A stretch of DNA of 64,000 nt, taken from assembly GCA_966211435.1 (NCBI GenBank), contig CBIHOG010000021.1, forward strand, positions 6,353 through 70,352. Reading direction: 5' to 3'. The translations under genes and the position numbers were made by a program. This stretch comes from an uncultured Variovorax sp. Its GTDB lineage: Bacteria > Pseudomonadota > Gammaproteobacteria > Burkholderiales > Burkholderiaceae_C. The first letter of the stretch is position 1. Every line of letters starts with the position of its first letter. Below are positions 14,757 to 25,109 of the stretch, in pieces. A model generated the notes under the pieces. The model had not been told where the DNA came from. It was given only the letters and a program-made list of their open reading frames with translations, and made no database searches.

Positions 14757-16136
14757 TCAGGCGGCGGGCATGACGATGCGGGCCTCGAAGCCCGCCGTCG
14801 CGCCGGGCGGCGGAGAGCTCAGATCCAGGCGGGCGCCGTGCTTCTCGACGATGGTCGAGACAATCGACAGGCCCAGTCCGTAGCCGGCCCGGCTGGACGC
14901 ATGGCGCACGTGGCGCTGGCGCAGCGTGCGCAGCTGAGCCTCGCTCACGCCGGGGCCGAAGTCGCGCACGGCCAAGGTGCAGGGTTGAAGCACCTCGATG
15001 ACCACGCGGCCGCGGCCGTAGCGCAGTGCGTTCTCCACCAGGTTGCGCAGGGCGATCGCGAGCGCGTCGACGTCGCCGAGCGCCATGGGCGGCTCGGTAT
15101 CGGGCACCTTCAACGTCAAGCGTTCGTTGACGCGCGGATCCTGCCAGAACTCCTGCGCCACGGTGCCGGCGAGCTGGACCAGGTCGATCCTCGTGCGCGC
15201 GAGCGACGCGCCCGATTCGGCGCGCGAGAGCTGCAGCAGCTTCTCGGTGCGGTGCCCGAGGATCTGGAGCGCGTCCAGAGCGCCTTCGACGTCCTCGCGC
15301 GTGAGATCGTGCTCCAGCGCCGTCTGCAGCCGCAGCCGCGCCGCGGCCAGTGGCGTGCGCAGCTCGTGCGCGGCATTGGCCGCCAGCGCGCGTTCCACGT
15401 CCAGTGAGTGCGAAAGCCGTTCGAGCAGGCGGTTGACGTGGTCGCCCACCGTGCGCAGTTCCTGCGGCAGGCCGGGCAGCTGGATCGCGCGCAGGTCCGT
15501 GCCGCTGCGCTGCTCGATCTCGCCCGACAGCTGCTGCAGCACCCGCAGCTCGGTGCGGGCAACGTTGCGCAGCACCAGGGCCAGCAGGGGCAGCACGGCG
15601 CCCAGCGGGATGATGAGGCCCAGCAGGGTACGGTTGAGCGCGCGGCGACGCTCGTCCAGCGGGTCGGCGACCTGCAGGAAAAAGTCCATGGTCGGATGCC
15701 GCACGGTGTAGATGCGCCAGGCCTCCGCGTTCGCGAAGCCGGGCGCCAGCGGCACGTCGAAGGCATTGCCCGGCGCCTCGATGGAGCGCAGCAGCACCCG
15801 CTCGTGCAGGTCGACCACCTGGTAGAGCACGGCATCGGTGGGATAGAGCTGCGGCGGCGCGATGAGCGGCGAGCGCGCATCGGGATCCTCGCCCTGCAAC
15901 TTCATCAACTCCTGCACCGCCATGTCGAACATGCGGTGGGAGACTTCGACCAGCTCGTTGTCGAAGTTGTGGTTGATCTCGCGGTCCACGTACCACACCA
16001 CGCCCAGCACGCACAGCAGCCACACCCCGCCTACCCAGAGGATGAGGGTGCGCGTGAGCCGGCCTGCCAGGGAATCGCGGCGGACGAAAGCGCCCAGGCC
16101 CTCGCTGCCGGCCTGTTCCAGGAGCTTCAGATTCAT
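14757..16136 (-). CDS. Sensor histidine kinase (QseC/PmrB/ColS-like)
   Basis: Two TM segments, HAMP, AAHELRTPL H-box, NLVENALRYG, DFGPG, GYGLGL; ATGA overlap with the response regulator. Confidence 0.9.
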   Translation of the reverse strand: MNLKLLEQAGSEGLGAFVRRDSLAGRLTRTLILWVGGVWLLCVLGVVWYVDREINHNFDNELVEVSHRMFDMAVQELMKLQGEDPDARSPLIAPPQLYPTDAVLYQVVDLHERVLLRSIEAPGNAFDVPLAPGFANAEAWRIYTVRHPTMDFFLQVADPLDERRRALNRTLLGLIIPLGAVLPLLALVLRNVARTELRVLQQLSGEIEQRSGTDLRAIQLPGLPQELRTVGDHVNRLLERLSHSLDVERALAANAAHELRTPLAAARLRLQTALEHDLTREDVEGALDALQILGHRTEKLLQLSRAESGASLARTRIDLVQLAGTVAQEFWQDPRVNERLTLKVPDTEPPMALGDVDALAIALRNLVENALRYGRGRVVIEVLQPCTLAVRDFGPGVSEAQLRTLRQRHVRHASSRAGYGLGLSIVSTIVEKHGARLDLSSPPPGATAGFEARIVMPAA

Positions 16137-16819
16137 TGGTCTTCTTTTTCTTCTTCGTCCGGCGAGAAGGAAAGCCGGTAGCCCAGTCCGCGCAGGGTCT
16201 GGATGTGGCTGCGGCCGAGCTTGCGACGCAGGCGGCTGATGAAGACCTCCAGTGTGTTGCTGTCCGCCTCGTCGCCAAAGCCGTAGAGCGCGTCGGCCAG
16301 GTTCTCGCGCGTGTGGATGCGCTCGGGGCGCGTCGCCATCACGCGCAGCAGCGCCCATTCCTTCTGCGTGAGCGTGATGGGGAAGCCGTCCTTGCGTACC
16401 ATGTCGCGGCCGAGGTCGATCTCCAGGCCGCCCAGCTTCAGCACCGGAGAACTGCTGGCGCTGCGGCGGCGCTCGACGGCACGCAGGCGGGCCAGCAGTT
16501 CCGCGGGGTCGTACGGCTTGATGAGGTAGTCGTCCGCGCCGGCGTCAAGGCCGCGGATGCGGTCGGTGACCTGGTCGCGGGCGGTCAGAACGATCACGAT
16601 GGGCCGGTCCCGCAATGCGCGCACGGTGGGTAGCAGCGAGAGGCCGTCGCCGTCGCCCAGGTGCAGGTCCAGCAGCACGGCAGCATACTGCACGGCGGCC
16701 AGCGCCGATCGCGCCTCGGCAAGGCCCGGCGCCACGTCCACGACGAAGGCCTTCGCCATGAGGTAGCTGCACACGGCGTCGGCCAGGGCGGTATCGTCTT
16801 CGACCAGCAATATCCGCAC
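16133..16819 (-). CDS. OmpR-family response regulator (QseB/PmrA/ColR-like)
   Basis: MRILLVEDD, LLDLHL, LTARD, GADDYLIKP, winged helix LRRKLG...TLRGLGY. Confidence 0.93.
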   Translation of the reverse strand: MRILLVEDDTALADAVCSYLMAKAFVVDVAPGLAEARSALAAVQYAAVLLDLHLGDGDGLSLLPTVRALRDRPIVIVLTARDQVTDRIRGLDAGADDYLIKPYDPAELLARLRAVERRRSASSSPVLKLGGLEIDLGRDMVRKDGFPITLTQKEWALLRVMATRPERIHTRENLADALYGFGDEADSNTLEVFISRLRRKLGRSHIQTLRGLGYRLSFSPDEEEKEDQ

Positions 16820-16854
16820 TGCGGCTTCCTTTCAAAAGCTGGAGTCTAGTGCGC

Positions 16855-16887
16855 CTTAAGGCTTCGTTCAGGGCGCGAAACTAAGCT
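16855..16887 (+). promoter_or_regulatory. OmpR-type direct-repeat box and -10 element upstream of pap2 (CTTAAG-N5-GTTCAG-N10-TAAGCT)
   Basis: Read directly; same spacing as the sites at 17612 and 25064. Confidence 0.65.
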
Positions 16888-16895
16888 GGCGGCGA

Positions 16896-17597
16896 ATGAG
16901 CCGTTCTGCTGTCACACATCCCCCCGCTTCTTCCTCCCTCACGCCGCTCTTCTCGCCCTTCGCGCTGACTGTCGCCTCGCTCGTGCTCGTGTTGGCGTGG
17001 GACGCGAGCAAGCTCGACCTGTGGCTGGCGGAGATGATGGGCACGCCCGCTGGTTTTCCGCTGCGGGACAACTGGTTCCTTGTCAACATCATGCACGAGG
17101 GGGCCAAGTGGCTGAGTTGGGCGCTGGCCTTCGCGTTGATCGCGGGAATCCGCTGGCCGGCGGGCTTCCTGCGGCGGGTCTCCTTGCGCGACCGGATGCA
17201 GCTCGTCGCGGCGCTGGTGCTTTCCGTGCTGGCGGTCTCGATCCTCAAGCGCGCGAGCGAGAGCAGTTGCCCTTGGGATTTGCAGGTCTTCGGTGGCGTG
17301 GCGCGTTACGTATCTCATTGGTCCCTCGGCGTGCTGGACGGGGGGCCGGGCAAGTGTTTTCCGGCCGGGCACGCCTCGGCCGCCTTCGCATTCGCAGGGG
17401 GGTATTTCGCACTTCGTCGGTCTTCGCCCGCATTCGCCCGTGCCTGGCTCGTTGCCGCCCTGGCTGCGGGCCTGGTGCTCGGCCTGACGCAGCAGCTTCG
17501 CGGAGCGCACTACATGAGCCACACGCTCTGGACAGGCTGGGTCTGCTGGGCGGTCGGCTATGCCCTCGACGCTGTGCTTCACCGCAAAGATGAATGA
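16896..17597 (+). CDS. PAP2-family membrane phosphatase
   Basis: KRASESSCPW, CFPAGHAS, QQLRGAHYMSH acid-phosphatase motifs; multiple TM segments. Confidence 0.88.
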   Translation: MSRSAVTHPPASSSLTPLFSPFALTVASLVLVLAWDASKLDLWLAEMMGTPAGFPLRDNWFLVNIMHEGAKWLSWALAFALIAGIRWPAGFLRRVSLRDRMQLVAALVLSVLAVSILKRASESSCPWDLQVFGGVARYVSHWSLGVLDGGPGKCFPAGHASAAFAFAGGYFALRRSSPAFARAWLVAALAAGLVLGLTQQLRGAHYMSHTLWTGWVCWAVGYALDAVLHRKDE

Positions 17598-17611
17598 AAC
17601 CTGACCAAGGG

Positions 17612-17644
17612 CTTCAGGGAGATTTCAGTCCCGCTTCTTAGCCT
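17612..17644 (+). promoter_or_regulatory. OmpR-type box and -10 element upstream of eptA (CTTCAG-N5-TTTCAG-N10-TAGCCT)
   Basis: Read directly; ATG follows 6 nt after the -10, which would make the mRNA leaderless. Confidence 0.7.
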
Positions 17645-17650
17645 CTCCGG

Positions 17651-19429
17651 ATGTCCGAATCGTCCGTCACCTCGTCTCGCTTTTCTCCCTCCCCCTCAGA
17701 AGAATCCCGCCCCGGCTCCTCCTCCAGTGCCGGCACCGCACCATCTGGCGCTCCATGGGCGGCGCTTGATCGGTGGTTCTCGCGGCCCCGCTCGGCGCGC
17801 AGCGTGGTGGGCTGGCTCAGCCTGTATCTCGCCGTCGCGGCCAACTGGCCCTTGTGGATCGAACTGGCGCGTATTGGCGGCGCCCCCAGTGTCTATGTGC
17901 CCTCGATCGCCGTGATGGCGCTGCTCACGTTCTGCGGCAGCGCCGCGATACTGTCCTTCACCGCCTGGTCTCGCTGGATGAAGCCGCTGTGGTTTGCGGT
18001 GGTGCTCCTGGCCGCGGTCGTGCAGCACTACATGCTGAGCTACCGCATCGTGATGGATCCGAGCATGGTGGCCAATGCGATGCAGACGGATGCGAACGAA
18101 GTGCGCGACCTGTTGAGCTGGCGCATGCTGCTGAATGTGCTGCTGGTCGCCGCCTTGCCCGGATGGGCGCTCTGGCGCGTGCGCATTCCGCCGATGCGGG
18201 TGGTGTCGCAGCTGTGGCGCAACCTGCTGTTGCTGTTCGCCGTCTTCGCGCTGGCCGCGGCAGCCATCGTCGCCATGAACCGGCAACTGGCGCCGCTGAT
18301 GCGCAACAACGTCCATCTGCGCTACATGATGAATCCGGTCGCGAGCCTGTATTCGACGGGCGCCGCGGTGGGCAGGCCGTTGTTCAAGCACAGCCGCAAG
18401 CTCATCCCGGTTTCGGGCGGCGCGGCCCTCGGCGCCAGCTACGCGGCGCAGAAGAAGCCGCCGCTGTTCGTCCTCGTGGTGGGCGAGACGGCGCGCGCCG
18501 ACCATTTCGCGCTCAACGGCTATGCGCGCAACACGACGCCGGAACTTGCCGCGCGCAACGTGTTGAGTTATCGCGAAGTCCACTCCTGCGGGACCAACAC
18601 GCTCGCCTCGGTACCCTGCATGTTCTCGCCGCTGGGCAAGCAGGCCTTCGAGGCCCGCAAGGACGACTACGAGAACCTGATGGATGTGCTGCAGGCTTCG
18701 GGCCTCGCGGTTTTCTGGCTCGACAACCAGGCCGGCGGCTGCAAGGGCGTGTGCGACCGCATCCCGCACGCATCCGCCTTCGATGGGCTCGACGAAGGCG
18801 TGAAGAACGCGCTGTGCGAAGGCGACGAGTGCCTTGACGACGTGATGCTCAAGGGCCTGGACGCACGCCTGGCTGCGCTGCCGGCCGAGCGCCGCGCCAA
18901 GGGTGTGGTGCTGGTAATGCACCAGATGGGAAGCCACGGGCCTGCCTACTACAAGCGTTCTTCCGCCGACATGAAGCGCTTCGTGCCCGAGTGCAAGACC
19001 AACGCGCTGGCTGAGTGCAGCCACGCTGAACTGATCAACGGCTTCGATAACTCGATTGCCTATACCGACCGCTTTCTTGGCCAGACGATCGACTGGCTCA
19101 AGGGCCAATCCGCGCAGTACGACACGGGCCTGCTCTACCTGAGCGACCACGGCGAATCGCTGGGCGAATATGGCCTTTTCCTGCACGGTGTGCCTTACAG
19201 TTTCGCGCCCGAGGTCCAGAAGCACATCCCGATGGTGACCTGGTTCGCCGAGGGGATGACCACGCGGCGTCGACTCTCGCGCTCCTGCATGCAGGCGGGG
19301 CTGGACATTCCGCTCACGCACGACAATCTTTATCACACGGTCCTCGGCCTGATGGACGTGACGACGCCGACGTACAAGGTCGGGCTGGATGCGCTGGCTT
19401 CGTGCCGGGGGAACGGCGCGGGCGCCTGA
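17651..19429 (+). CDS. eptA: Lipid A phosphoethanolamine transferase (EptA/MCR family)
   Basis: 5 TM N-terminus, VVGETAR, SCGTNTLASVPCMFS (catalytic Thr), GSHGPAYY, SDHGESLGE, LHG. Confidence 0.92.
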   Translation: MSESSVTSSRFSPSPSEESRPGSSSSAGTAPSGAPWAALDRWFSRPRSARSVVGWLSLYLAVAANWPLWIELARIGGAPSVYVPSIAVMALLTFCGSAAILSFTAWSRWMKPLWFAVVLLAAVVQHYMLSYRIVMDPSMVANAMQTDANEVRDLLSWRMLLNVLLVAALPGWALWRVRIPPMRVVSQLWRNLLLLFAVFALAAAAIVAMNRQLAPLMRNNVHLRYMMNPVASLYSTGAAVGRPLFKHSRKLIPVSGGAALGASYAAQKKPPLFVLVVGETARADHFALNGYARNTTPELAARNVLSYREVHSCGTNTLASVPCMFSPLGKQAFEARKDDYENLMDVLQASGLAVFWLDNQAGGCKGVCDRIPHASAFDGLDEGVKNALCEGDECLDDVMLKGLDARLAALPAERRAKGVVLVMHQMGSHGPAYYKRSSADMKRFVPECKTNALAECSHAELINGFDNSIAYTDRFLGQTIDWLKGQSAQYDTGLLYLSDHGESLGEYGLFLHGVPYSFAPEVQKHIPMVTWFAEGMTTRRRLSRSCMQAGLDIPLTHDNLYHTVLGLMDVTTPTYKVGLDALASCRGNGAGA

Positions 19430-19449
19430 GCCGGCGCGCTCAAGGCGGA

Positions 19450-20247
19450 TCAAGGTTCGCCGAGTCGGTCCGTCCGCAGCCGGTGACGCTCGTCCATGAC
19501 AGACCGGGCCGCGAGGTAGACGGCGCCCGCAGCGGCAAGGCCGCCCGCGCCCGTGAGCAGGAAGAGCAGCAGGATCTGGTACTTCGCCGCGTCGATGGGG
19601 TCCATGCCGGCAAGCAACTGGCCGGTCATGATGCCCGGCAGCGTGATCACGCCGGCCGCGGACATCTGATTGATGATAGGGATCATCCCCCGGCGGATGG
19701 CGGCGCGGATGAGGTCCGCCAGCGCCTCCCGCCCGGTCGCGCCGAGGGCGAGCCTCGCCTCGATCACCGCGCGGCGCGCGAGCACCTCGCCGAAGAACCC
19801 GTCCAGGCCAAGGCTGGCCGCGTTCAGCACCGTTCCCAGCACGATGCCCATGAGCGGGATGGCGTAACGCGGGTCATCCCAGGGCTCGGGTCGGATGGCG
19901 GTCGCCAGAGCCAGCGCCACCGTCCCGACGCTGGAAAGCGTGACCACGAGCGCGCCGATGCGGTAGTTGCCCCCACCCTTCAGACGGTGCTGCGGACGCA
20001 CGGCCACTTCGCGCGCCGCGGCGAGGATCATCAGGGCGATGATGGCAAGCGTCGCGGCGGCGGAGGATGCACCGAAAACGATCCGCAGCACAAAGCCCAC
20101 CAGCAGCAACTGGACCACCATGCGCGCCGCGGCCCACAGCATCTGCCGATGCAAGCGCAGGCGAAGGAGCAGGGACGCGGCCGCATTGATCACCACCAGC
20201 GACGCGGCCAGGGCGAGGTCCGTGCCGTGGAGGGCGACAGTGCTCAT
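19450..20247 (-). CDS. UPF0014/FetB(YbbM)/STAR2-like ABC permease
   Basis: RMVVQLLLVG, IPLMGIVLG, ITLPGIMTGQLLAG, AAKYQI family motifs. Confidence 0.88.
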   Translation of the reverse strand: MSTVALHGTDLALAASLVVINAAASLLLRLRLHRQMLWAAARMVVQLLLVGFVLRIVFGASSAAATLAIIALMILAAAREVAVRPQHRLKGGGNYRIGALVVTLSSVGTVALALATAIRPEPWDDPRYAIPLMGIVLGTVLNAASLGLDGFFGEVLARRAVIEARLALGATGREALADLIRAAIRRGMIPIINQMSAAGVITLPGIMTGQLLAGMDPIDAAKYQILLLFLLTGAGGLAAAGAVYLAARSVMDERHRLRTDRLGEP

Positions 20248-20308
20248 CGGCGTGCTTTCGTGCTACGAACGACGGCGGGGGCTTGTCCGAGGCGGCCCGG
20301 CGCGGCAC

Positions 20309-20923
20309 TCATGCGGGGCGCAGCCTGCGCTCGGCCATCTCGAACATCCGCTGGGCCATCCGCTTGGCCTGTTCGTGCGAATGCGTGACGAGGACGATGG
20401 CGAGCCCGGCCTCCATGCGCCGCCGCAGGAGGGCTTCCATTGCCAGGGTCGAGGCTGGGTCCAGCGCGGCGGCCGGTTCGTCGAGCAGCAGCGCGTCGGG
20501 GCGAGGCGCCAGCGAGCGTATGAGCGCAAGCCGTTGGCGCTCGCCGGTGGAAAGTCTCGCGATGTCGGTGCGGAGTAGCGCCGGCGCCAAGCCGAGCGCA
20601 GGCATGAACTCCAGCAGCGCCGAGGCGTCCGACGCGCGGAAGTGCGCCGCGCCGGTGGGCGCCCACCATGCCGGCTCGGCTGCCTGGTAGACGACCTTGC
20701 GTCGCCACTGCGGCGCGGACCAGGTCTCGCGGCGCCTGCCGCTCAGTTCGACGGTGCCCGTGCCGGGGTCGAGGTCGGCGAGCAATCGCAGGAAGACGCT
20801 CTTGCCCGCGCCCGACTTGCCGACGATCACCGTGCATTCGCCGCGGTGAATGTCGATGTCGAAGGGGCCGCCATGCGGCGAGCGCAACTCGCGGATGCGC
20901 AGGAGTGGGTGTTCTGCGGTCAT
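20309..20923 (-). CDS. FetA(YbbL)/STAR1-like ABC ATP-binding protein
   Basis: C-terminal part of track ORF 20309..21739; GKSGAGKS, LSTGERQR, LLLDEP, VTHS; ATG overlaps the deacetylase stop. Confidence 0.85.
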   Translation of the reverse strand: MTAEHPLLRIRELRSPHGGPFDIDIHRGECTVIVGKSGAGKSVFLRLLADLDPGTGTVELSGRRRETWSAPQWRRKVVYQAAEPAWWAPTGAAHFRASDASALLEFMPALGLAPALLRTDIARLSTGERQRLALIRSLAPRPDALLLDEPAAALDPASTLAMEALLRRRMEAGLAIVLVTHSHEQAKRMAQRMFEMAERRLRPA

Positions 20924-21804
20924 GTCACGACACCGCATCCGCTGTGCGAAAGGGGGGCGAGGGAGACAAGGCCCGTGGGCGTCTCGACTGGGAAGACAGT
21001 GTCGCGCAGCACCACATACTCCCGCAGTCTCGCGGCGGCGATCGGGTCCGAGGGCGTCTTGTCCAGCGCCGGGTGACACATCAGCACATCGCCGGTGCGG
21101 CAGATGTCGAGCCAGCCTCGCAGGAGCGTCCGGTAGTCGCTGCGGCTGCCAGTGACGCCGGTGAAGTCGTAGACGCCGAGCAGGCGGCAACTCGTCGGGA
21201 TGCCGCGCCGCCCCGCCGCGGCCATCATCCCGACACCTCCCATCGCGAAAATGAGATCCTCCTTCGAACGAGGGATGCGGCGCATCCTGGCGGGGGCGGT
21301 GCTCCGGATCCAGGGCGCCAAAGTGCCGTATCTGTTGGCGATGACATCGGCCAGCACATCCGCCACGCCAGGGAGTTGATGCACATGCCGGTGTCCGTCC
21401 ACGAACGAGGGTGGGCGGTCGAGGCCGTCCTCGAATCGTCCCAACTGTTCCATGATTCGCGCGCGCATGCTCTCGGGCCGGAGAAGGCCCAGGTAACCCT
21501 TGAGGATCCAGGGGCCCAAGGCCGCCTCGCCGTGCCGGCCTCGCGAAGGACTGGTGAGATCGAAATGAAGTCCTATCTCGAGCCGCGAGGCGGAGAGGGC
21601 GCGCAGCTCCCGTGACCCGGCCGCCCAGGCAGGGCGCATGACCATGCACCCCGTCGAGGAAAGCGAACCCCGCTCGGCGAGGTCGAGCACCGCCTCGTTG
21701 ATGCCGGTGCTCAAGCCGAAGTCGTCCGCGCAGACGCAAAGATGGCGGCTGGGTGCCGCATTGGCCCTCTGCGCGATGCTACGCTCGTGCATGGCGTCGG
21801 ACAT
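20920..21804 (-). CDS. YdjC/ChbG-family carbohydrate deacetylase (LgmC/NaxD-like)
   Basis: CADDFG, IGLHFDLT, DGHRHVH, LMCHP; start could alternatively be 21792. Confidence 0.87.
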   Translation of the reverse strand: MSDAMHERSIAQRANAAPSRHLCVCADDFGLSTGINEAVLDLAERGSLSSTGCMVMRPAWAAGSRELRALSASRLEIGLHFDLTSPSRGRHGEAALGPWILKGYLGLLRPESMRARIMEQLGRFEDGLDRPPSFVDGHRHVHQLPGVADVLADVIANRYGTLAPWIRSTAPARMRRIPRSKEDLIFAMGGVGMMAAAGRRGIPTSCRLLGVYDFTGVTGSRSDYRTLLRGWLDICRTGDVLMCHPALDKTPSDPIAAARLREYVVLRDTVFPVETPTGLVSLAPLSHSGCGVVT

Positions 21805-21823
21805 ATCGAGAGGATCGCGGGGA

Positions 21824-22222
21824 ATGAAGCGGCATCATGCCGAGGTTGCGCGGTTCATCGTGGTCGGAACGGCCGCCGCCGCCGTCCACTTGCTGATCGT
21901 CATGATGCTCGTGACCTGGCTGCGCTGGCAGCCGCTCGGGGCGAACCTGTGCGGCTGGCTGGTCGCGTTCTGGGTTTCCTTCTTCGGTCACTATGGTTGG
22001 ACTTTCAGGGGCAGCGCGCTGGGCGTCTCCGCCTCGGCGAGGCGCTTCTTCGTTCTGTCCGCGGGTGGCTTCGCCGTCAACGAGGCCCTGTACGCCGCCG
22101 CGCTGCGATGGTCCGCGCTGCGGTTCGACTGGCTGCTGGCCTGCGTGCTGGTCTTCATGGCAGTGCTGACTTTTGTGGCGAGTCGGCTGTGGGCGTTTCG
22201 AGGCAGCGGGGGGCGCGCGTAG
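21824..22222 (+). CDS. GtrA-family small membrane protein (undecaprenyl-P-sugar flippase-like)
   Basis: RFIVVG, ANLCGWLVAFWVSF..H..WTF, RLWAF; four TM segments; start MKRHH. Confidence 0.87.
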   Translation: MKRHHAEVARFIVVGTAAAAVHLLIVMMLVTWLRWQPLGANLCGWLVAFWVSFFGHYGWTFRGSALGVSASARRFFVLSAGGFAVNEALYAAALRWSALRFDWLLACVLVFMAVLTFVASRLWAFRGSGGRA

Positions 22223-23732
22223 CGCTGCCTTCGAATCGCCAGATGGCTGCCTCTGCGTTCGCCGCGACCGGGCGTGCCTCCGCCAGCCAGGGATGAGCGA
22301 GTGGCGCCTGAGTCGCGCCGATCACCCATGTCGCGCGCGGTACGCACAATGTTTCGCCGAGCCGGGATGGATCGACCAGCAGCCTGGACGCCAGCGCGGC
22401 GTCGAAGCGCCCCGCGTCGCGAAGTTCCCTCCGCCAGTCGTCGCGCCGGTCCACCGCTTCCGGCGACCAGTCACTGCTGACCATCACCGGTTCACGCAGC
22501 GACCAGTGAATCGGGACCTCGTAGTAGTAGGCGTCGAGCATCAGCACCTGGTCGCCTGGTGCGACGGTCTCGCCCGAGGGCAAGCGGATGCTTGCACGTG
22601 GCTGTACCGCAACCGACTCCACCGCGACGATCGCGCCCACGCATGCCAGGCCGGCCAGCGCCGCAGTCCAGCGCAGTGGGTGGGACGCGAGGCCGCGTTC
22701 GCCTGCCGCGGCCAATGCAGCCCTTGCGACAAGGTAGGCCAGGGGTGGCAAGGCCGGCAGCACATAGCCGATCAGCTTGGAGCGCGGCAGCGAGAAGAAG
22801 ACGACGATGCAGGCCCCCCAGATCGTCATGAGCCAGTCAAGATCCCGCGTGCGCGGCAAGGTCCGCGGGCCCTTGCGCGGAACGAGGAGCCAGGCGATCC
22901 AGGGCACCGTCAGTCCCGCGATGACCGGCAGGTAGAACCAGAACGGGTGTGCGTTGTTGAAGCCGGAAGTGGCGAAGCGCCGGAAGTGCTGCGTGACGAT
23001 GAAGTAATCGAAGAAGGCCGGATAGCGCCACTGCATCGCGATCAGCCATGGCCCGGCGGTCGCGATCAGCACGCCCCAGCCGGGCAGCCAGGCCATCAGC
23101 CGCGCGGCCTGCAGGCGCCGTGTGGCCGCGGTCCACGCCAGGAAGACCAAAGCCGGGAGCATCAGGCCGATCAGGCCCTTCGCCAGCACGCCGAGCGCGG
23201 CGAAGGCGTAGGCGGCGGCCAAGGCGCCGCGCCATTCACCCTCCTGCTCCCTCGAGAGGGCCGCGTGCGCGGCCAGCAGCACGGTGGCGCTGATGCAGCC
23301 GGCGACCAGCATGTCGAGGTTGGCGAACTGCGCCGCTGCGAAGAAGAAGGGCATCGTGACCAGGACGACGGCGGAGAGTCTTGCAACGGTATGACCCGCC
23401 CAACGGCGAAGAAACAGGAAGAGGGAGGCCGCCGCCAGCGTGCCGCCCAAGATCGACGGCAGCCGGGCCGCCCATTCGCTCGGCCCCAGCACTGTCATTG
23501 CAGCCGCGGCGATCCAGTAGAACAAGGGTGGCTTATGGAAGAAGGGGAGGCCGTCCAGGCGGGGCACCAGCCAGTCGCCCGAACGAAGCATCTCGAACGC
23601 GACCCCTGCATAGCGGCCTTCGTCCGGCGTCATCAGTGGTCGGAGCCAGGCGGTCGCCGCCAGCCAGAGGAAGATGGCCGCCACGACGATGAAGGAGCCC
23701 CGCGACGCACGGAGGCCGTGCGAAGGTTTCAT
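22155..23732 (-). CDS. ArnT/GT83(PMT-like) lipid-carrier-dependent glycosyltransferase (LgmB-like)
   Basis: PDEGRYA, FFHKPPLFYW, EWAARLPS, NLDML, LAKGLIG, SKLIGYVLP; ATGA overlap with GT2. Confidence 0.9.
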   Translation of the reverse strand: MKPSHGLRASRGSFIVVAAIFLWLAATAWLRPLMTPDEGRYAGVAFEMLRSGDWLVPRLDGLPFFHKPPLFYWIAAAAMTVLGPSEWAARLPSILGGTLAAASLFLFLRRWAGHTVARLSAVVLVTMPFFFAAAQFANLDMLVAGCISATVLLAAHAALSREQEGEWRGALAAAYAFAALGVLAKGLIGLMLPALVFLAWTAATRRLQAARLMAWLPGWGVLIATAGPWLIAMQWRYPAFFDYFIVTQHFRRFATSGFNNAHPFWFYLPVIAGLTVPWIAWLLVPRKGPRTLPRTRDLDWLMTIWGACIVVFFSLPRSKLIGYVLPALPPLAYLVARAALAAAGERGLASHPLRWTAALAGLACVGAIVAVESVAVQPRASIRLPSGETVAPGDQVLMLDAYYYEVPIHWSLREPVMVSSDWSPEAVDRRDDWRRELRDAGRFDAALASRLLVDPSRLGETLCVPRATWVIGATQAPLAHPWLAEARPVAANAEAAIWRFEGSATRAPRCLETPTADSPQKSALP

Positions 23733-24742
23733 GGCGCGGGCGCCTGGCCCAGCCCGCGTCCCACGTCCTTCTTGACCACGTAGAGGGGGCGTCCCTTCAC
23801 TTCCTCGAAGATGCGCGCGACGTACTCGCCCAGGATGCCGGTCGAGATCATCTGCATGCCGATGAGGAACATCAGGCTCACGACGATGGTCGTCCACCCG
23901 GAGACGGCGTTTCCCGCGAACAGGTGCTCCACGACGAGATACAAGCCATAGCCGAGGGCCGGCACGGCCAGCATGAGGCCGACCACGCTGATCATCCGCA
24001 GCGGCCAGGTGGTGAAGGAGGTCAGGCCGTCGAGTGCATGGGCGAACAGGCGCCATGCGCTGAAGGTGCTGACGCCATGCAGGCGCGGCGCCGGCGTGTA
24101 CGGCAACGCCACCGCCTTGAATCCGACCCAGGCATAAAGGCCCTTCATGAAGCGACTGCGTTCAGGCAAGCTCAGCAGCGCGTCGACGACCTTGCGGTCC
24201 ATCAGCCGGAAATCACCGGCATCCTTCGGCAGCGCGTACCGGCCGGAAGTGTTCACGAGCCTGTAGAAGAGGCCCGCGCCGACGCGCTTGAGGGGCGACT
24301 CCTCGTCGCGCGCTTCGCGTACCGCATAGACGACCTCGGCGCCCCGTGCCCACTCGGCCACCATTGCCGGGATGAGCGACGGCGAATGCTGCAGGTCGCC
24401 GTCGAGCACCAGCACCGCGTCGCCGCGCGCCGCCTCCAGTCCGGCGGTGAGCGCGGCTTCCTTGCCGAAATTGCGCGACAGCGAGATGCACCGGAAGCCC
24501 GGCAGTTCGCACCAGACGGCAGCCACCGCCGCGGTTTCGTCGGTGCTTCCGTCGTCGACCACGATGATTTCCCAGTCGAGGTGCGTGTCGAAAAGGATCT
24601 CCTCCAATCGGGAGAGCAGTTCGTTGAGGTTTGCGGCCTCGTTGAAGCAGGGGATGACGCAACTGACGCTGCGGTGGGGCGCCGTCAGCTGAACAGGCTG
24701 GCAGTCGAGGGTGCTGCCGAGCATTCGCGGCGGGCCGTTCAT
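23729..24742 (-). CDS. GT2 undecaprenyl-phosphate glycosyltransferase (ArnC/GtrB/LgmA-like)
   Basis: VIPCFNEA, VDDGSTD, LSRNFGKEAAL, LDGDLQH, GDFRLMDR, two C-terminal TM segments. Confidence 0.92.
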   Translation of the reverse strand: MNGPPRMLGSTLDCQPVQLTAPHRSVSCVIPCFNEAANLNELLSRLEEILFDTHLDWEIIVVDDGSTDETAAVAAVWCELPGFRCISLSRNFGKEAALTAGLEAARGDAVLVLDGDLQHSPSLIPAMVAEWARGAEVVYAVREARDEESPLKRVGAGLFYRLVNTSGRYALPKDAGDFRLMDRKVVDALLSLPERSRFMKGLYAWVGFKAVALPYTPAPRLHGVSTFSAWRLFAHALDGLTSFTTWPLRMISVVGLMLAVPALGYGLYLVVEHLFAGNAVSGWTTIVVSLMFLIGMQMISTGILGEYVARIFEEVKGRPLYVVKKDVGRGLGQAPAP

Positions 24743-24833
24743 GCCTGGGCTCCGTGGCGCCCGGGCCGTTCAGAGCATGCGGGAATCTGCGCCCGCGCGG
24801 AGGTGCCCGGGCATGGAGTTTGTGGCAGCGGAT

Positions 24834-25025
24834 TCATGACCGGAACGCGTCGGGTTGATCGATGCGTACGGACGACAGTACGAAGAGCGTGGCCTCGCGC
24901 TGCGCCGCACGATCCGCATGGGGATGAGCAGCCAGGAATGGCTGCGGCGCCGCAAGCAGCAGCGCGGAAGGAGACCACACCATCCGGTGGGCGGCAATGA
25001 GTCGACGAAGGCCTGCGAGCAACAT
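24834..25025 (-). CDS. Possible 63-aa leaderless small ORF (hypothetical)
   Basis: ATG at the predicted transcription start; basic then hydrophobic N-terminus; codon usage is A/T-rich at third positions, so coding support is weak. Confidence 0.25.
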   Translation of the reverse strand: MLLAGLRRLIAAHRMVWSPSALLLAAPQPFLAAHPHADRAAQREATLFVLSSVRIDQPDAFRS

Positions 25026-25031
25026 GCCGCG

Positions 25032-25064
25032 ACTCTATGGAGCGCGGATGAAGCCAAGCTGAAT
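25032..25064 (-). promoter_or_regulatory. OmpR-type box and -10 element upstream of the GT2-arnT operon (ATTCAG-N5-CTTCAT-N10-TAGAGT)
   Basis: Read directly on the minus strand; spacing identical to the two plus-strand sites; ATG 6 nt after the -10. Confidence 0.6.
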
Positions 25065-25109
25065 CCGCGCTTCAGCTTCGGGGCGGTGTTCTCAGCCACG
25101 CGTGGCGTC

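What the first reader, a model, noticed from the sequence alone, without database searches (positions are those of the whole stretch)
16855..25064. Three copies of one promoter architecture define a local regulon, probably with leaderless mRNAs
Seen: CTTAAG-N5-GTTCAG-N10-TAAGCT (16855-16887, +), CTTCAG-N5-TTTCAG-N10-TAGCCT (17612-17644, +) and ATTCAG-N5-CTTCAT-N10-TAGAGT (25064-25032, -). The 11-bp repeat period and 10-bp spacer are identical, each copy heads a different unit of the island, and an ATG follows the -10 by 8, 6 and 6 nt with no SD. Established: OmpR-family regulators bind hexamer direct repeats with an N5 spacer (PmrA CTTAAG; Pseudomonas PhoP-type GTTCAG). Inference: the adjacent response regulator binds these sites.
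Basis: partly seen in the sequence, partly recalled or inferred. Interest (0 to 1): 0.7.

Follow-up and report, generated by a model that had tools for sequence, protein, structure and literature searches.

The report
Regulator-dependent leaderless promoters for lipid A remodelling
Three near-identical promoters in a Variovorax genome, each with a two-hexamer regulator site in place of the -35 element and a start codon right after the -10 element, switch on lipid A remodelling genes; the design is conserved across related genera, but it is a new example of a well-known kind of circuit.

Summary
All three sites read NTT(C/A)A(G/T)-N5-NTTCA(G/T)-N10-TANNNT, followed by ATG after 8, 6 and 6 nt.

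It is far beyond chance. A weight matrix trained only on relatives ranks these three sites first among about 12 million positions of the 6-Mb genome. They score 29.3, 29.2 and 23.8; the next best scores 20.0, and six simulated genomes give no score of 23.8 or more.

The genome is a Variovorax.
- Site 1 is kept in 63 of 64 loci with the regulator-PAP2 arrangement.
- Site 2 (eptA) is kept with invariant spacing in Variovorax and eight other genera.
- Site 3 is kept in six relatives.

The best reading is activator-dependent promoters bound by the adjacent PmrA-like response regulator. Its recognition helix is invariant in 76 orthologs and unique in this genome.

The leaderless reading is well supported for eptA:
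- ATG lies 6-7 nt after the -10, in frame and open, in 58 of 62 loci.
- The first codons vary mainly at third positions.
- The whole genome shows a TANNNT-N6/7-ATG peak at gene starts.

It is plausible for PAP2. For unit 3 the start position is conserved, but the ORF here is a truncated remnant.

The closest known systems are ColRS/RaxRH, PmrAB and Pseudomonas PhoP. I rate it a new member of a known kind.

The parts
14757..16138 (-). Sensor histidine kinase of the PmrB/QseC-like type. It starts at ATG 16136, overlapping the regulator's stop. It has two membrane helices flanking a periplasmic domain of about 115 aa, with an ExxE motif (ELVE) just after the first helix.
   Evidence: Pfam HisKA, HATPase_c and 2CSK_N; best NCBIfam matches PmrB and QseC, below their cut-offs; start codon, hydropathy and ExxE.
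16133..16819 (-). [quoted passage not shown] It is the proposed binder of the boxes.
   Evidence: Pfam Response_reg and Trans_reg_C; best NCBIfam match PmrA at 203 bits against a cut-off of 330; closest solved structure K. pneumoniae PmrA/BasR 4S04/8JO2, E 9e-43; helix unique in the genome and invariant in 76 orthologs.
16843..16848 (-). TAGACT on the minus strand, the probable -10 of the regulator-kinase operon. It is followed by an SD (AAGGAAG) and GTG 16819. It lies 6 nt from the box here, but the distance varies in relatives.
   Evidence: AGTCTA is conserved next to the regulator start in the 23 genus loci while its distance to the box varies from 6 to more than 50 nt; SD seen. The promoter role is an inference.
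16855..16887 (+). Site 1, the PAP2 promoter: CTTAAG-N5-GTTCAG box (16855-16871), N10, -10 TAAGCT (16882-16887). ATG 16896 follows 8 nt later.
   Evidence: score 23.8, rank 3 in the genome; the same architecture in 63 of 64 regulator-PAP2 loci, with CTTCAG-N5-GTTCA(G/T)-N10-TA(A/G)GCT conserved and the spacers variable.
16896..17597 (+). PAP2-family lipid A phosphatase (LpxE/LpxF-like). There is no in-frame start upstream and no SD-like alternative downstream.
   Evidence: Pfam PAP2; NCBIfam PAP2_lipid_A at 75 bits, below cut-off; start analysis.
17590..17606 (+). Two extra hexamers in inverted orientation, ATGAAT-N5-CTGACC, on the same 11-bp phase and 5 nt upstream of the site 2 box. With the box they form a four-hexamer head-to-head operator. 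The first hexamer overlaps the PAP2 stop codon.
   Evidence: The consensus of 52 unique eptA promoters is CTGAAC-N5-CTGAnn-N5-nTTCAG-N5-yTTCAG. In genera where the regulator and eptA are divergent neighbours, the inverted pair has its own N10 and -10 towards the regulator gene (L150-L153).
17612..17644 (+). Site 2, the eptA promoter: CTTCAG-N5-TTTCAG box (17612-17628), N10, -10 TAGCCT (17639-17644). ATG 17651 follows 6 nt later.
   Evidence: score 29.3, rank 1; all 20 Variovorax relatives fetched; eight further genera; ATG at 6-7 nt, in frame and open, in 58 of 62 loci.
17651..19429 (+). Lipid A phosphoethanolamine transferase EptA, with a Ser/Pro-rich N-terminal extension of about 50 aa. The next in-frame start is GTG at codon 52, without an SD.
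   Evidence: Pfam EptA_B_N and Sulfatase; NCBIfam P_eth_NH2_trans at 517 bits, above the cut-off of 500; starts; third-position-biased variation in codons 2-11 among 24 relatives.
25070..25075 (-). Inverted hexamer CTGAAG, 5 nt upstream of the site 3 box. It occupies the same position as the inner inverted hexamer of the eptA operator.
   Evidence: conserved as AAAGCTGAA in L032, L033, L036 and L040.
25032..25064 (-). Site 3: ATTCAG-N5-CTTCAT box (25064-25048), N10, -10 TAGAGT (25037-25032). ATG 25025 follows 6 nt later.
   Evidence: score 29.2, rank 2, from a matrix that contained no site 3 sequence; orthologous promoters in L032, L033, L036, L040 and L045, and a degenerate one in L035, all with ATG 6-7 nt after the -10.
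24834..25025 (-). 63-codon ORF behind site 3. It is a truncated, internally deleted homolog of a Variovorax-specific 149-aa membrane protein that heads this unit in relatives. It is possibly non-functional here.
   Evidence: tblastn similarity and ORF comparison. The 149-aa protein has 54 homologs, all unnamed or Variovorax, and most are the same length, so they are called from this same ATG. No Pfam family. GC3 is 0.68 here against 0.83-0.84 for the full-length genes.
23729..24742 (-). GT2 polyprenyl-phosphate glycosyltransferase (ArnC/LgmA-like) with its own SD (GGAG). It lies about 280 nt downstream of the site 3 promoter.
   Evidence: Pfam Glycos_transf_2; NCBIfam PgfS and ArnC-type matches below cut-off; SD.
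22155..24056 (-). ArnT/LgmB-like lipid A glycosyltransferase, given here as the longest ORF. The real start is probably near the GT2 stop, because the family match begins at residue 124.
   Evidence: Pfam PMT_2 and PMT; NCBIfam ArnT at 188 bits, below cut-off.

Best explanation
The three sites are activator-dependent sigma-70 promoters of the PhoB/PmrA type. A 17-bp box of two direct hexamers on an 11-bp period, consensus NTTCAG-N5-NTTCA(G/T), takes the place of the -35 element. It ends exactly 10 bp before a weak -10 (nAnnnT).

The phosphorylated dimer of the adjacent PmrA-like response regulator (16133-16819) is proposed to bind the box head-to-tail and recruit RNA polymerase. It would do so when its membrane kinase senses an envelope or metal signal.

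This would turn on three units that remodel lipid A:
- a PAP2 lipid A phosphatase;
- the phosphoethanolamine transferase EptA;
- an ArnC/ArnT-like (Bordetella Lgm-like) sugar-transfer pair.

Transcription is predicted to start at or within 0-2 nt of the A of the ATG, 6-8 nt after the -10. The first cistron of each unit would then be a leaderless mRNA translated without a Shine-Dalgarno site.

Shown here: the architecture, its statistical uniqueness, its conservation, gene functions by family, conservation of the ATG position, and coding-type variation from that ATG.

Inferred: which protein binds, activation rather than repression, the exact start sites and the inducing signal.
For: 1. Uniqueness. 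A matrix trained on relatives only ranks the three sites 1-3 in the genome. A Markov null gives no comparable hit, and window shuffles expect 0.00 matches.

2. Footprinting. Hexamers, the N5 and N10 spacings and the -10 are conserved while spacer letters and flanks vary.
- Site 1 is in 63 of 64 loci.
- Site 2 is in all 20 Variovorax relatives fetched and in Xylophilus, Xenophilus, Acidovorax, Ottowia, Pseudacidovorax, Melaminivora, Rubrivivax and Comamonas.
- Site 3 is in six relatives, although that unit is unlinked to the regulator there.

3. Geometry. With the A of ATG as +1, the box spans -39 to -23. This lies between the PhoB box (-41 to -25) and the pmra-box, which sits 4 bp further downstream (PMC10570014). 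No canonical -35/-10 promoter is found in any of the three regions.

4. Regulator assignment.
- Regulator gene and box are adjacent in every genome.
- The helix SNTLEVF(I/V)SRLRRKLG is invariant in 76 orthologs down to 65% overall identity, and no paralog in the genome shares it.
- Distant PmrA/QseB-like best hits carry VHIH helices and have TTAAG/TTAAT repeats nearby instead.
- Relative to K. pneumoniae PmrA, the proposed specificity residues differ (H193F, H195S, N196R, E199R), while N188 and V192 are kept (PMC3973317, PMC10570014).

5. Leaderless start.
- For eptA, ATG lies 6 nt (52 loci) or 7 nt (6 loci) after the -10, in frame and open, in 58 of 62 loci, although the length of the N-terminal extension varies.
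- There is no in-frame start upstream and none before codon 52 downstream.
- Codons 2-11 vary mainly at third positions: entropy 1.14 against 0.53 and 0.43.
- Genome-wide, TANNNT followed by 6 or 7 nt and an ATG occurs 76 and 55 times at candidate starts of long ORFs, against a background of about 12.
- All seven site 3 promoters have ATG at 6-7 nt.

6. Regulon logic matches known lipid A remodelling circuits (PMC8306577, PMC2689224).
Against: - No transcription start, binding or expression data could be obtained.
- The box letters match the Pseudomonas aeruginosa PhoP consensus, so a different OmpR-family regulator among the 57 matches in this genome could be the binder.
- The PAP2 ATG is 8 nt from the -10, where the genome-wide signal is weak (22 against about 12). 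Many relatives have leaders of 13-100 nt before PAP2.
- The ORF behind site 3 is a truncated remnant with low GC3. 'Leaderless mRNA' there may mean only a conserved start position, with GT2 translated from its own SD about 280 nt downstream.
- In Comamonas the codon at that position is GTG, a poor leaderless initiator.
- Some eptA -10 elements begin with C or G (CAGACT, CACAGT, GACGAT).
- The sequences compared are related, so counts across loci overstate independence.
Confidence: 0.78

Rival explanations
1. The boxes and promoters are real, but a different OmpR-family regulator binds them, for example a PhoP- or ColR-type protein encoded elsewhere in the genome. The adjacent two-component system would then control something else or act only indirectly.
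For: The box matches the published Pseudomonas aeruginosa PhoP consensus GTTCAGNNNNNRTTCAG almost letter for letter (PMC3156716). It also resembles footprinted P. putida ColR sites, NTTCAC-N5-TTTCAC (PMC2689224). The genome has 57 matches to this regulator family. In relatives unit 3 is unlinked to the regulator.
Against: No paralog shares the recognition helix, and the nearest DNA-binding domain is only 40% identical. Regulator gene and box stay adjacent through all rearrangements, whether or not PAP2 lies between them. The helix is invariant wherever the box is kept. Relatives with another helix type sit next to another box type.
Confidence: 0.1
2. The regulator sites are real but the mRNAs are not leaderless. 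Transcription would start elsewhere, from an upstream promoter or by read-through from PAP2 into eptA. The conserved 'TANNNT' would be part of the operator or of a leader, with translation starting by an SD-independent internal mechanism or at a downstream codon.
For: No start site was mapped. There is no terminator between PAP2 and eptA, so read-through is possible. PAP2 has long leaders in many relatives. Comamonas has GTG at this position. Several -10 elements are poor.
Against: The ATG is kept at exactly 6-7 nt from a hexamer that keeps A at position 2 and T at position 6 in 58 of 62 loci from nine genera, while the 6 nt between vary freely. Coding-type variation starts at that ATG. No alternative start with an SD exists. 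The same -10/N6-7/ATG arrangement is about five times over-represented at gene starts across this genome. No canonical promoter lies upstream.
Confidence: 0.2
3. The regulator acts at these sites as a repressor, or as a dual regulator, rather than as a class II activator. For example, it could occlude the -35 region of constitutive promoters, with the four-hexamer head-to-head operator at eptA forming a repression complex.
For: The eptA and unit 3 operators carry extra inverted hexamers that an activator does not need. OmpR-family proteins can repress: PhoP at retS (PMC3156716) and ColR at PP0737 (PMC2689224).
Against: None of the promoters has a recognisable -35. The box ends exactly 10 bp before the -10, as in PhoB- and PmrA-activated promoters (PMC10570014). 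The -10 elements are weak, which is typical of activator dependence. In genera with divergent regulator and eptA genes, the inverted pair is explained as the box of a second, divergent promoter.
Confidence: 0.07

Closest known systems
ColS-ColR of Pseudomonas / RaxH-RaxR of Xanthomonas (PMC2689224, PMC8306577, PMC13524251)
   Same: - The regulator-kinase operon lies next to a divergently transcribed PAP2/lpxE gene.
- The regulon includes eptA, a PAP2 phosphatase and GtrA/GT2/ArnT-type genes.
- Footprinted ColR sites are direct hexamer repeats on an 11-bp period (NTTCAC-N5-TTTCAC), one letter per hexamer away from the box here.
- The kinase has a small periplasmic domain with an ExxE motif.
   Different: - The hexamer ends in G or T rather than C, and the T-rich spacer of ColR sites is absent.
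- Orthology to ColR could not be tested, because no ColR sequence was at hand.
- Among the models and structures available, the regulator scores best against PmrA.
- ColR sites lie 60-190 nt before start codons, not at leaderless promoters.
PmrA-PmrB (BasR-BasS) of Enterobacteria (PMC3973317, PMC10570014; PDB 4S04, 4S05, 8JO2)
   Same: - It is the closest regulator by sequence: NCBIfam PmrA is the best match and 4S04 has E 9e-43.
- The box has two hexamers separated by 5 bp and replaces the -35.
- Targets are eptA (pmrC) and the arn genes.
- The first hexamer of site 1 here is literally CTTAAG.
   Different: - The score is below the equivalog cut-off (203 against 330 bits).
- The box core is TTCAG, not TTAAG/TTAAT.
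- The proposed specificity residues differ (H193F, H195S, N196R, E199R).
- The box sits about 2 bp further upstream relative to the -10.
- The first genes are leaderless.
PhoP box of Pseudomonas aeruginosa (GTTCAGNNNNNRTTCAG; PMC3156716)
   Same: The half-site letters and the spacing are nearly identical.
   Different: - The regulator here is much closer to PmrA (203 bits) than to the enterobacterial PhoP model (117 bits).
- No PhoQ-type kinase is present.
- Similarity of the boxes is not evidence of orthology.
PhoB pho-box promoters (class II activation by an OmpR/PhoB-family regulator)
   Same: An 11-bp direct repeat lies about 10 bp upstream of the -10, there is no -35, and contact with sigma region 4 is expected. 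The PhoB box spans -41 to -25 and this box spans -39 to -23 (PMC10570014; established knowledge of the pho box).
   Different: The half-site sequence, the signal and the regulon all differ.
Bacterial leaderless genes recognised by a -10-like TANNNT just upstream of the start codon (PMC3160421, PMC6028130; Actinobacteria, Deinococcus PMC4007540)
   Same: A -10 hexamer lies 6-7 nt before the ATG, there is no SD, and the signature recurs genome-wide.
   Different: - The organism is a betaproteobacterium (Comamonadaceae).
- The signature is tied to one activator's regulon.
- The start sites have not been mapped.

Membership tests
OmpR/PhoB-family response-regulator-dependent (class II type) promoter | Two direct-repeat half-sites on a period of about 11 bp | tested here: met
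   The hexamer-N5-hexamer arrangement is present in all three sites and in more than 100 orthologous sites.
OmpR/PhoB-family response-regulator-dependent (class II type) promoter | The box overlaps or replaces the -35 at a fixed distance from a -10 element, with no canonical -35 | tested here: met
   The N10 spacing to nAnnnT is invariant. The scan finds no TTGACA-type promoter. The position, -39 to -23, lies between the PhoB and PmrA boxes (PMC10570014).
OmpR/PhoB-family response-regulator-dependent (class II type) promoter | The phosphorylated regulator binds the box and activates transcription | not testable with these tools
   This needs EMSA or footprinting and reporter or RNA assays. Only indirect support exists.
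PmrA/BasR (equivalog) | Protein score above the NCBIfam equivalog cut-off | tested here: not met
   NF007928 scores 203.5 bits against a cut-off of 330.
PmrA/BasR (equivalog) | Recognition of XTTAAY-N5-XTTAAY through His193/His195-type helix residues | tested here: not met
   The box core is TTCAG in all relatives. The helix has F, S, R and R at PmrA positions 193, 195, 196 and 199.
ColRS/RaxRH | Regulator-kinase operon divergent from a PAP2/lpxE gene, with eptA and arnT-type genes nearby or in the regulon | tested here: met
   Gene map; synteny in 64 loci; compared with PMC8306577 and PMC2689224.
ColRS/RaxRH | Orthology of the regulator and kinase to ColR and ColS (reciprocal best hits) | not tested
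   No ColR or ColS sequence was available in the tools. Class-level best hits were QseB/PmrA-like, not syntenic, at 40-47% identity.
ColRS/RaxRH | ColR consensus (T/C)(T/C)NA(C/G)NN(T/C)TTTTT(C/G)AC | tested here: inconclusive
   The period and the TTCA core are shared. The T-rich spacer and the terminal C are not, except for CTTCAC in site 3 orthologs.
Leaderless mRNA | Transcription start at, or within a few nt of, the start codon | not testable with these tools
The start is predicted from the -10 position only.
Leaderless mRNA | -10-like hexamer 6-7 nt upstream of a conserved ATG that is the true start codon, with no SD | tested here: met
   Met for eptA and for the unit 3 promoters. PAP2 is at 8 nt here and 7-11 nt in 22 of 57 distinct arrangements.

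The most novel reading that the evidence does not exclude
The regulon may use leaderless starts as a gate that ties translation to the regulator's own promoter. None of the three first cistrons has an SD. Transcripts that merely read through, for example from PAP2 into eptA across the 53-nt gap without a terminator, would then be poorly translated. Only RNAs that begin at the A of the ATG, positioned by the response regulator, would give protein. The conserved four-hexamer head-to-head operator would hold two regulator dimers. This design would be ancestral to a Comamonadaceae lineage of PmrA-like regulators that switched half-site specificity from TTAAG to TTCAG through changes in the recognition helix.
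Probability: 0.3. Interest if true: 0.6.

Novelty: new member of a known kind. Interest (0 to 1): 0.45.

Why it matters
- **Predicted regulon.** It gives a precise, testable cis-regulatory code (box, spacing, -10 and start) for lipid A remodelling, and hence cationic-peptide and metal tolerance, in Variovorax and related Comamonadaceae. These are common plant-associated and soil bacteria in which I found no description of this circuit.
- **Specificity change.** It offers a natural example of a shift in half-site specificity within the PmrA-like branch (TTAAG to TTCAG), with candidate helix residues to test.
- **Leaderless genes.** Leaderless genes appear to be a regular feature of this betaproteobacterial genome: roughly a hundred of about 2,900 long ORFs carry the signature. 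The arrangement is fixed in this regulator's eptA promoter across nine genera and in the unit 3 promoter within Variovorax.
- **Annotation.** The ATG directly after the -10 should be taken as the start of eptA, and of the 149-aa gene in relatives.

Tried and rejected
- **First regex for site 3 orthologs.** Requiring TTCA[GT] found none. The matrix scan later showed them with CTTCAC or degenerate hexamers, so the earlier negative was an artefact of the pattern.
- **Other box-only matches in the genome.** Two of the best lie between hydroquinone-dioxygenase subunit genes and inside or next to GST/CMD-family ORFs. They lack the N10 and -10 arrangement and are unrelated in function. Since 17 matches are observed against 9-14 at control spacings, I treat them as chance or unrelated.
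- **A box for the ydjC/gtrA/ABC genes at 19450-22222.** None was found.
- **Fetching a Pseudomonas ColR through the named control genomes.** The tool returns only counts. A class-wide search returned QseB/PmrA-like regulators without PAP2 or eptA nearby. ColR orthology therefore stays untested.
- **GC3-based gene calling around the hits.** It was too crude to classify sites as coding or intergenic. PAP2 and eptA themselves fell below the 0.82 filter.
- **Literature.** Searches for leaderless eptA, Variovorax start-site maps or Comamonadaceae eptA regulation found nothing relevant.

Full report
**1. The observation**

The three sites are present exactly as described.
- Site 1: CTTAAG-N5-GTTCAG-N10-TAAGCT at 16855-16887 (+), with ATG 16896 after 8 nt.
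- Site 2: CTTCAG-N5-TTTCAG-N10-TAGCCT at 17612-17644 (+), with ATG 17651 after 6 nt.
- Site 3: ATTCAG-N5-CTTCAT-N10-TAGAGT at 25064-25032 (-), with ATG 25025 after 6 nt.

An IUPAC version of the pattern matches three times in the window, against 0.00 expected from 100 shuffles. It matches three times in the whole 5.98-Mb assembly. That pattern was derived from the sites themselves, so I made a non-circular test.

I built a weight matrix from 39 unique orthologous sites taken only from relatives. Scanning both strands of the window's genome, the three sites rank first, second and third, with scores 29.3, 29.2 and 23.8. The best other position scores 20.0. Site 3 had no ortholog in the training set. 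Six third-order Markov genomes gave no score of 23.8 or more.

The 17-bp box alone is barely enriched: 17 matches with N5 against 9-14 at the control spacings N4, N7 and N8. The signal lies in the whole architecture.

**2. What lies around the sites**

Family searches give this map.

| Coordinates | Strand | Gene |
|---|---|---|
| 14757-16138 | - | PmrB/QseC-like histidine kinase |
| 16133-16819 | - | PmrA-like OmpR-family response regulator |
| 16896-17597 | + | PAP2 lipid A phosphatase |
| 17651-19429 | + | EptA (517 bits, above the domain cut-off) |
| 19450-about 20950 | - | UPF0014/ABC pair |
| 20920-21804 | - | YdjC-like deacetylase |
| about 21850-22222 | + | GtrA-like protein |
| 22155-24056 (longest ORF) | - | ArnT-like transferase |
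| 23729-24742 | - | GT2 (ArnC/LgmA-like) |
| 24834-25025 | - | 63-codon ORF directly behind site 3 |

The kinase starts at ATG 16136. It has a periplasmic domain of about 115 aa with an ExxE motif just after the first membrane helix. Record titles of close relatives identify the genus as Variovorax.

**3. Conservation of sites 1 and 2**

The regulator, PAP2 and EptA keep the same arrangement in 22 genus relatives.

*Site 1.* All 23 loci carry CTTCAG-N5-GTTCA(G/T)-N10-TA(A/G)GCT. The N5, N10 and flanking letters differ between them. In a wider set the site is found in 63 of 64 regulator-PAP2 loci. Many relatives add a second upstream pair of direct hexamers.

*Site 2.* All 20 Variovorax relatives fetched have NTTCAG-N5-YTTCAG-N10-(T/C)ANNNT-N6-ATG before eptA. 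This holds even where an extra gene separates PAP2 from eptA. The same is true in Xylophilus, Xenophilus, Acidovorax, Ottowia, Pseudacidovorax, Melaminivora, Rubrivivax and Comamonas.

The consensus of 52 unique eptA promoters shows two more hexamers in inverted orientation on the same 11-bp phase: CTGAAC-N5-CTGAnn-N5-nTTCAG-N5-yTTCAG. In the window they are ATGAAT and CTGACC at 17590-17606. Where the regulator and eptA are direct divergent neighbours (Comamonas), the inverted pair has its own N10 and a -10-like hexamer pointing at the regulator gene. That suggests an ancestral back-to-back promoter pair and autoregulation.

**4. Conservation of site 3**

The GT2/ArnT-like pair has orthologs in about 20 of 40 genus genomes, and there it is unlinked to the regulator. 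A first regex search missed the sites. The matrix then found them in L032, L033, L036, L040 and L045, reading AAAGCTGAA-N6-GTTCAG-CTTGG-CTTCAC-N10-TAGAGT-N6/7-ATG (L045 carries a more divergent version: GTTCAG-N5-TTTCAG-N10-TACGCT-N6-ATG). Inspection found a degenerate copy in L035: GATCAG-N5-GTTCAC-N10-TAGCAT-N6-ATG.

In L032, L035 and L045 the promoter heads a four-gene unit:
- a 149-aa protein with GC3 of 0.83-0.84;
- a second PAP2-family gene;
- GT2;
- ArnT-like.

The 149-aa protein has 54 homologs, all unnamed or from Variovorax. Most are the same length, so they are called from this same ATG.

In the window, as in L033, L036 and L040, the first two genes are lost. What remains is the promoter, the ATG and a 63-codon remnant with GC3 of 0.68. 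GT2 follows about 280 nt downstream with its own GGAG.

**5. Who binds the boxes**

This remains an inference, supported as follows.
- Regulator gene and box are neighbours in every genome examined.
- The recognition helix SNTLEVF(I/V)SRLRRKLG is invariant in 76 orthologs down to 65% overall identity.
- The helix is unique in the genome; the nearest paralogous DNA-binding domain is 40% identical.
- The closest solved structure is K. pneumoniae PmrA/BasR (4S04, 8JO2). N188 and V192, which contact the DNA, are kept. The residues proposed to set PmrA specificity differ: H193F, H195S, N196R and E199R (PMC3973317, PMC10570014).
- In 20 distant best hits across the class (40-47% identity), the helices are of the VHIH type. 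The repeats near those genes are TTAAG/TTAAT, and no PAP2 or eptA is adjacent. Helix type and box type therefore covary.

**6. How it most likely works**

If the A of the ATG is +1, the -10 spans -12 to -7 and the box spans -39 to -23. This lies between the PhoB box of pstS (-41 to -25) and the pmra-box, 4 bp further downstream. Both replace the -35 and act by contact with RNA polymerase (PMC10570014). No canonical -35/-10 promoter is present in the three regions.

I therefore read the sites as activator-dependent promoters switched on by the phosphorylated regulator.

**7. Leaderless starts**

*eptA.*
- ATG lies 6 nt (52 loci) or 7 nt (6 loci) after the -10, in frame with eptA and open, in 58 of 62 loci. 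This holds although the N-terminal extension varies in length, so insertions and deletions keep the frame.
- There is no in-frame start upstream. The next one downstream is GTG at codon 52, without an SD.
- Among 24 unique sequences of the V. paradoxus-like clade, codons 2-11 vary mainly at third positions: entropy 1.14 against 0.53 and 0.43. Examples are Ser TCA/TCC/TCG/TCT and Arg CGA/CGT/CGC/AGA. The 6-nt spacer varies freely. This is what a translated N-terminus starting at that ATG looks like.

*Genome-wide.* TANNNT followed by 6 or 7 nt and an ATG occurs 76 and 55 times at candidate starts of 2,921 long ORFs, against a background of about 12 per spacing. Leaderless genes therefore seem to be a regular minority class in this organism.

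*PAP2.* The spacing is 8 nt here, and 7-11 nt in 22 of 57 distinct arrangements. Other lineages have leaders of 13-100 nt. A leaderless or near-leaderless start is plausible for this genome, but it is not a fixed feature.

*Unit 3.* All seven promoters keep ATG at 6-7 nt, but the ORF here is a remnant.

**8. Comparison with known systems**

The closest match depends on the criterion.

| Criterion | Closest known system |
|---|---|
| Box letters | Pseudomonas aeruginosa PhoP |
| Regulator sequence | PmrA/BasR, but below the equivalog cut-off (203 against 330 bits) |
| Synteny and regulon | ColS-ColR of Pseudomonas and RaxH-RaxR of Xanthomonas |

For ColRS/RaxRH, the regulator-kinase genes sit next to a divergent PAP2/lpxE gene and control eptA, PAP2 and GtrA/ArnT-type genes (PMC8306577, PMC2689224, PMC13524251). 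The footprinted ColR sites, such as GTTCAG-N5-TTTCAC and CTTCAC-N5-TTTCAC, share the 11-bp period and the TTCA core. Orthology to ColR could not be tested.

I found no paper describing this circuit in Comamonadaceae, or a leaderless eptA.

**9. Verdict**

The finding is real and its interpretation is largely right.

It is a new member of a known kind: a two-component system controlling lipid A remodelling through an OmpR/PhoB-type box that replaces the -35.

Three features are worth noting:
- conserved leaderless first cistrons;
- a four-hexamer head-to-head operator at eptA;
- an apparent switch of half-site specificity within the PmrA-like branch.

Confidence is about 0.8 that these are regulator-dependent promoters of one regulon. 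It is about 0.7 that eptA is leaderless, and lower for PAP2 and for the remnant ORF of unit 3.

Noticed in passing
whole genome G000: At candidate starts of 2,921 long ORFs, TANNNT followed by exactly 6 or 7 nt and an ATG occurs 76 and 55 times, against about 12 at other spacings. GTG starts show little such peak (16 and 10 against about 8). Roughly a hundred genes of this Variovorax may be leaderless.
   Followed up: partly
L035:123-572 and homologs; window 24834-25025 (-): A Variovorax-restricted 149-aa membrane protein of unknown function heads the GT2/ArnT unit in relatives, followed by a second PAP2 gene. In the window it is reduced to a 63-codon remnant and the second PAP2 is missing.
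   Followed up: partly
G000:C8:83070-83113 (L160:2071-2113): Four tandem hexamers on an 11-bp period (TTTCAG, GTTCAG, GTTCAG, GTTCAA) lie in the short gap between two co-oriented genes. One of these is a hydroquinone 1,2-dioxygenase large subunit (PnpD-like). No -10 sits at N10. This is probably unrelated to the regulon.
   Followed up: partly
window 16843-16848 (-): TAGACT, with an SD and a GTG after it, is conserved in front of the regulator gene in the genus relatives. It is the likely -10 of the regulator-kinase operon. Its distance to the box varies from 6 to more than 50 nt, so autoregulation through site 1 is uncertain in Variovorax.
   Followed up: partly
L150, L151, L153 (Comamonas): The regulator and eptA are direct divergent neighbours. 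The intergenic region has two back-to-back boxes, each with N10 and a -10-like hexamer, which suggests autoregulation. The codon 7 nt after the eptA -10 is GTG, not ATG.
   Followed up: no
G000:C18:27865-28518: A paralogous OmpR-family regulator carries the PmrA/QseB-type helix SNTLEVHIHRLRRKID. It may be the TTAAG-binding counterpart in this genome.
   Followed up: no
L064-L066, L068-L070, L072, L073, L075-L077 (between PAP2 and eptA): Many Variovorax relatives carry an extra ORF of about 215 aa between PAP2 and eptA. By eye its N-terminus resembles the second PAP2 of unit 3. In L061 an ORF on the opposite strand fills that gap instead; by eye it looks like a cation-diffusion-type gene. The eptA promoter stays intact in all of them. 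Neither ORF was checked against Pfam.
   Followed up: no
window 17651-17806: EptA has a Ser/Pro-rich N-terminal extension of about 50 aa before the first membrane helix. Its length and sequence vary widely among relatives, while the reading frame and the first few residues are kept.
   Followed up: partly
window 23729-24056: The longest ArnT-like ORF overlaps the 3' end of GT2 by 328 nt in another frame. The family match begins at residue 124, so the true start is probably near the GT2 stop.
   Followed up: no
window 21804-22222: The GtrA-like gene lies on the plus strand between the ArnT-like and ydjC genes, which are both on the minus strand. No box precedes gtrA or ydjC, so whether they belong to the regulon is open.
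   Followed up: no
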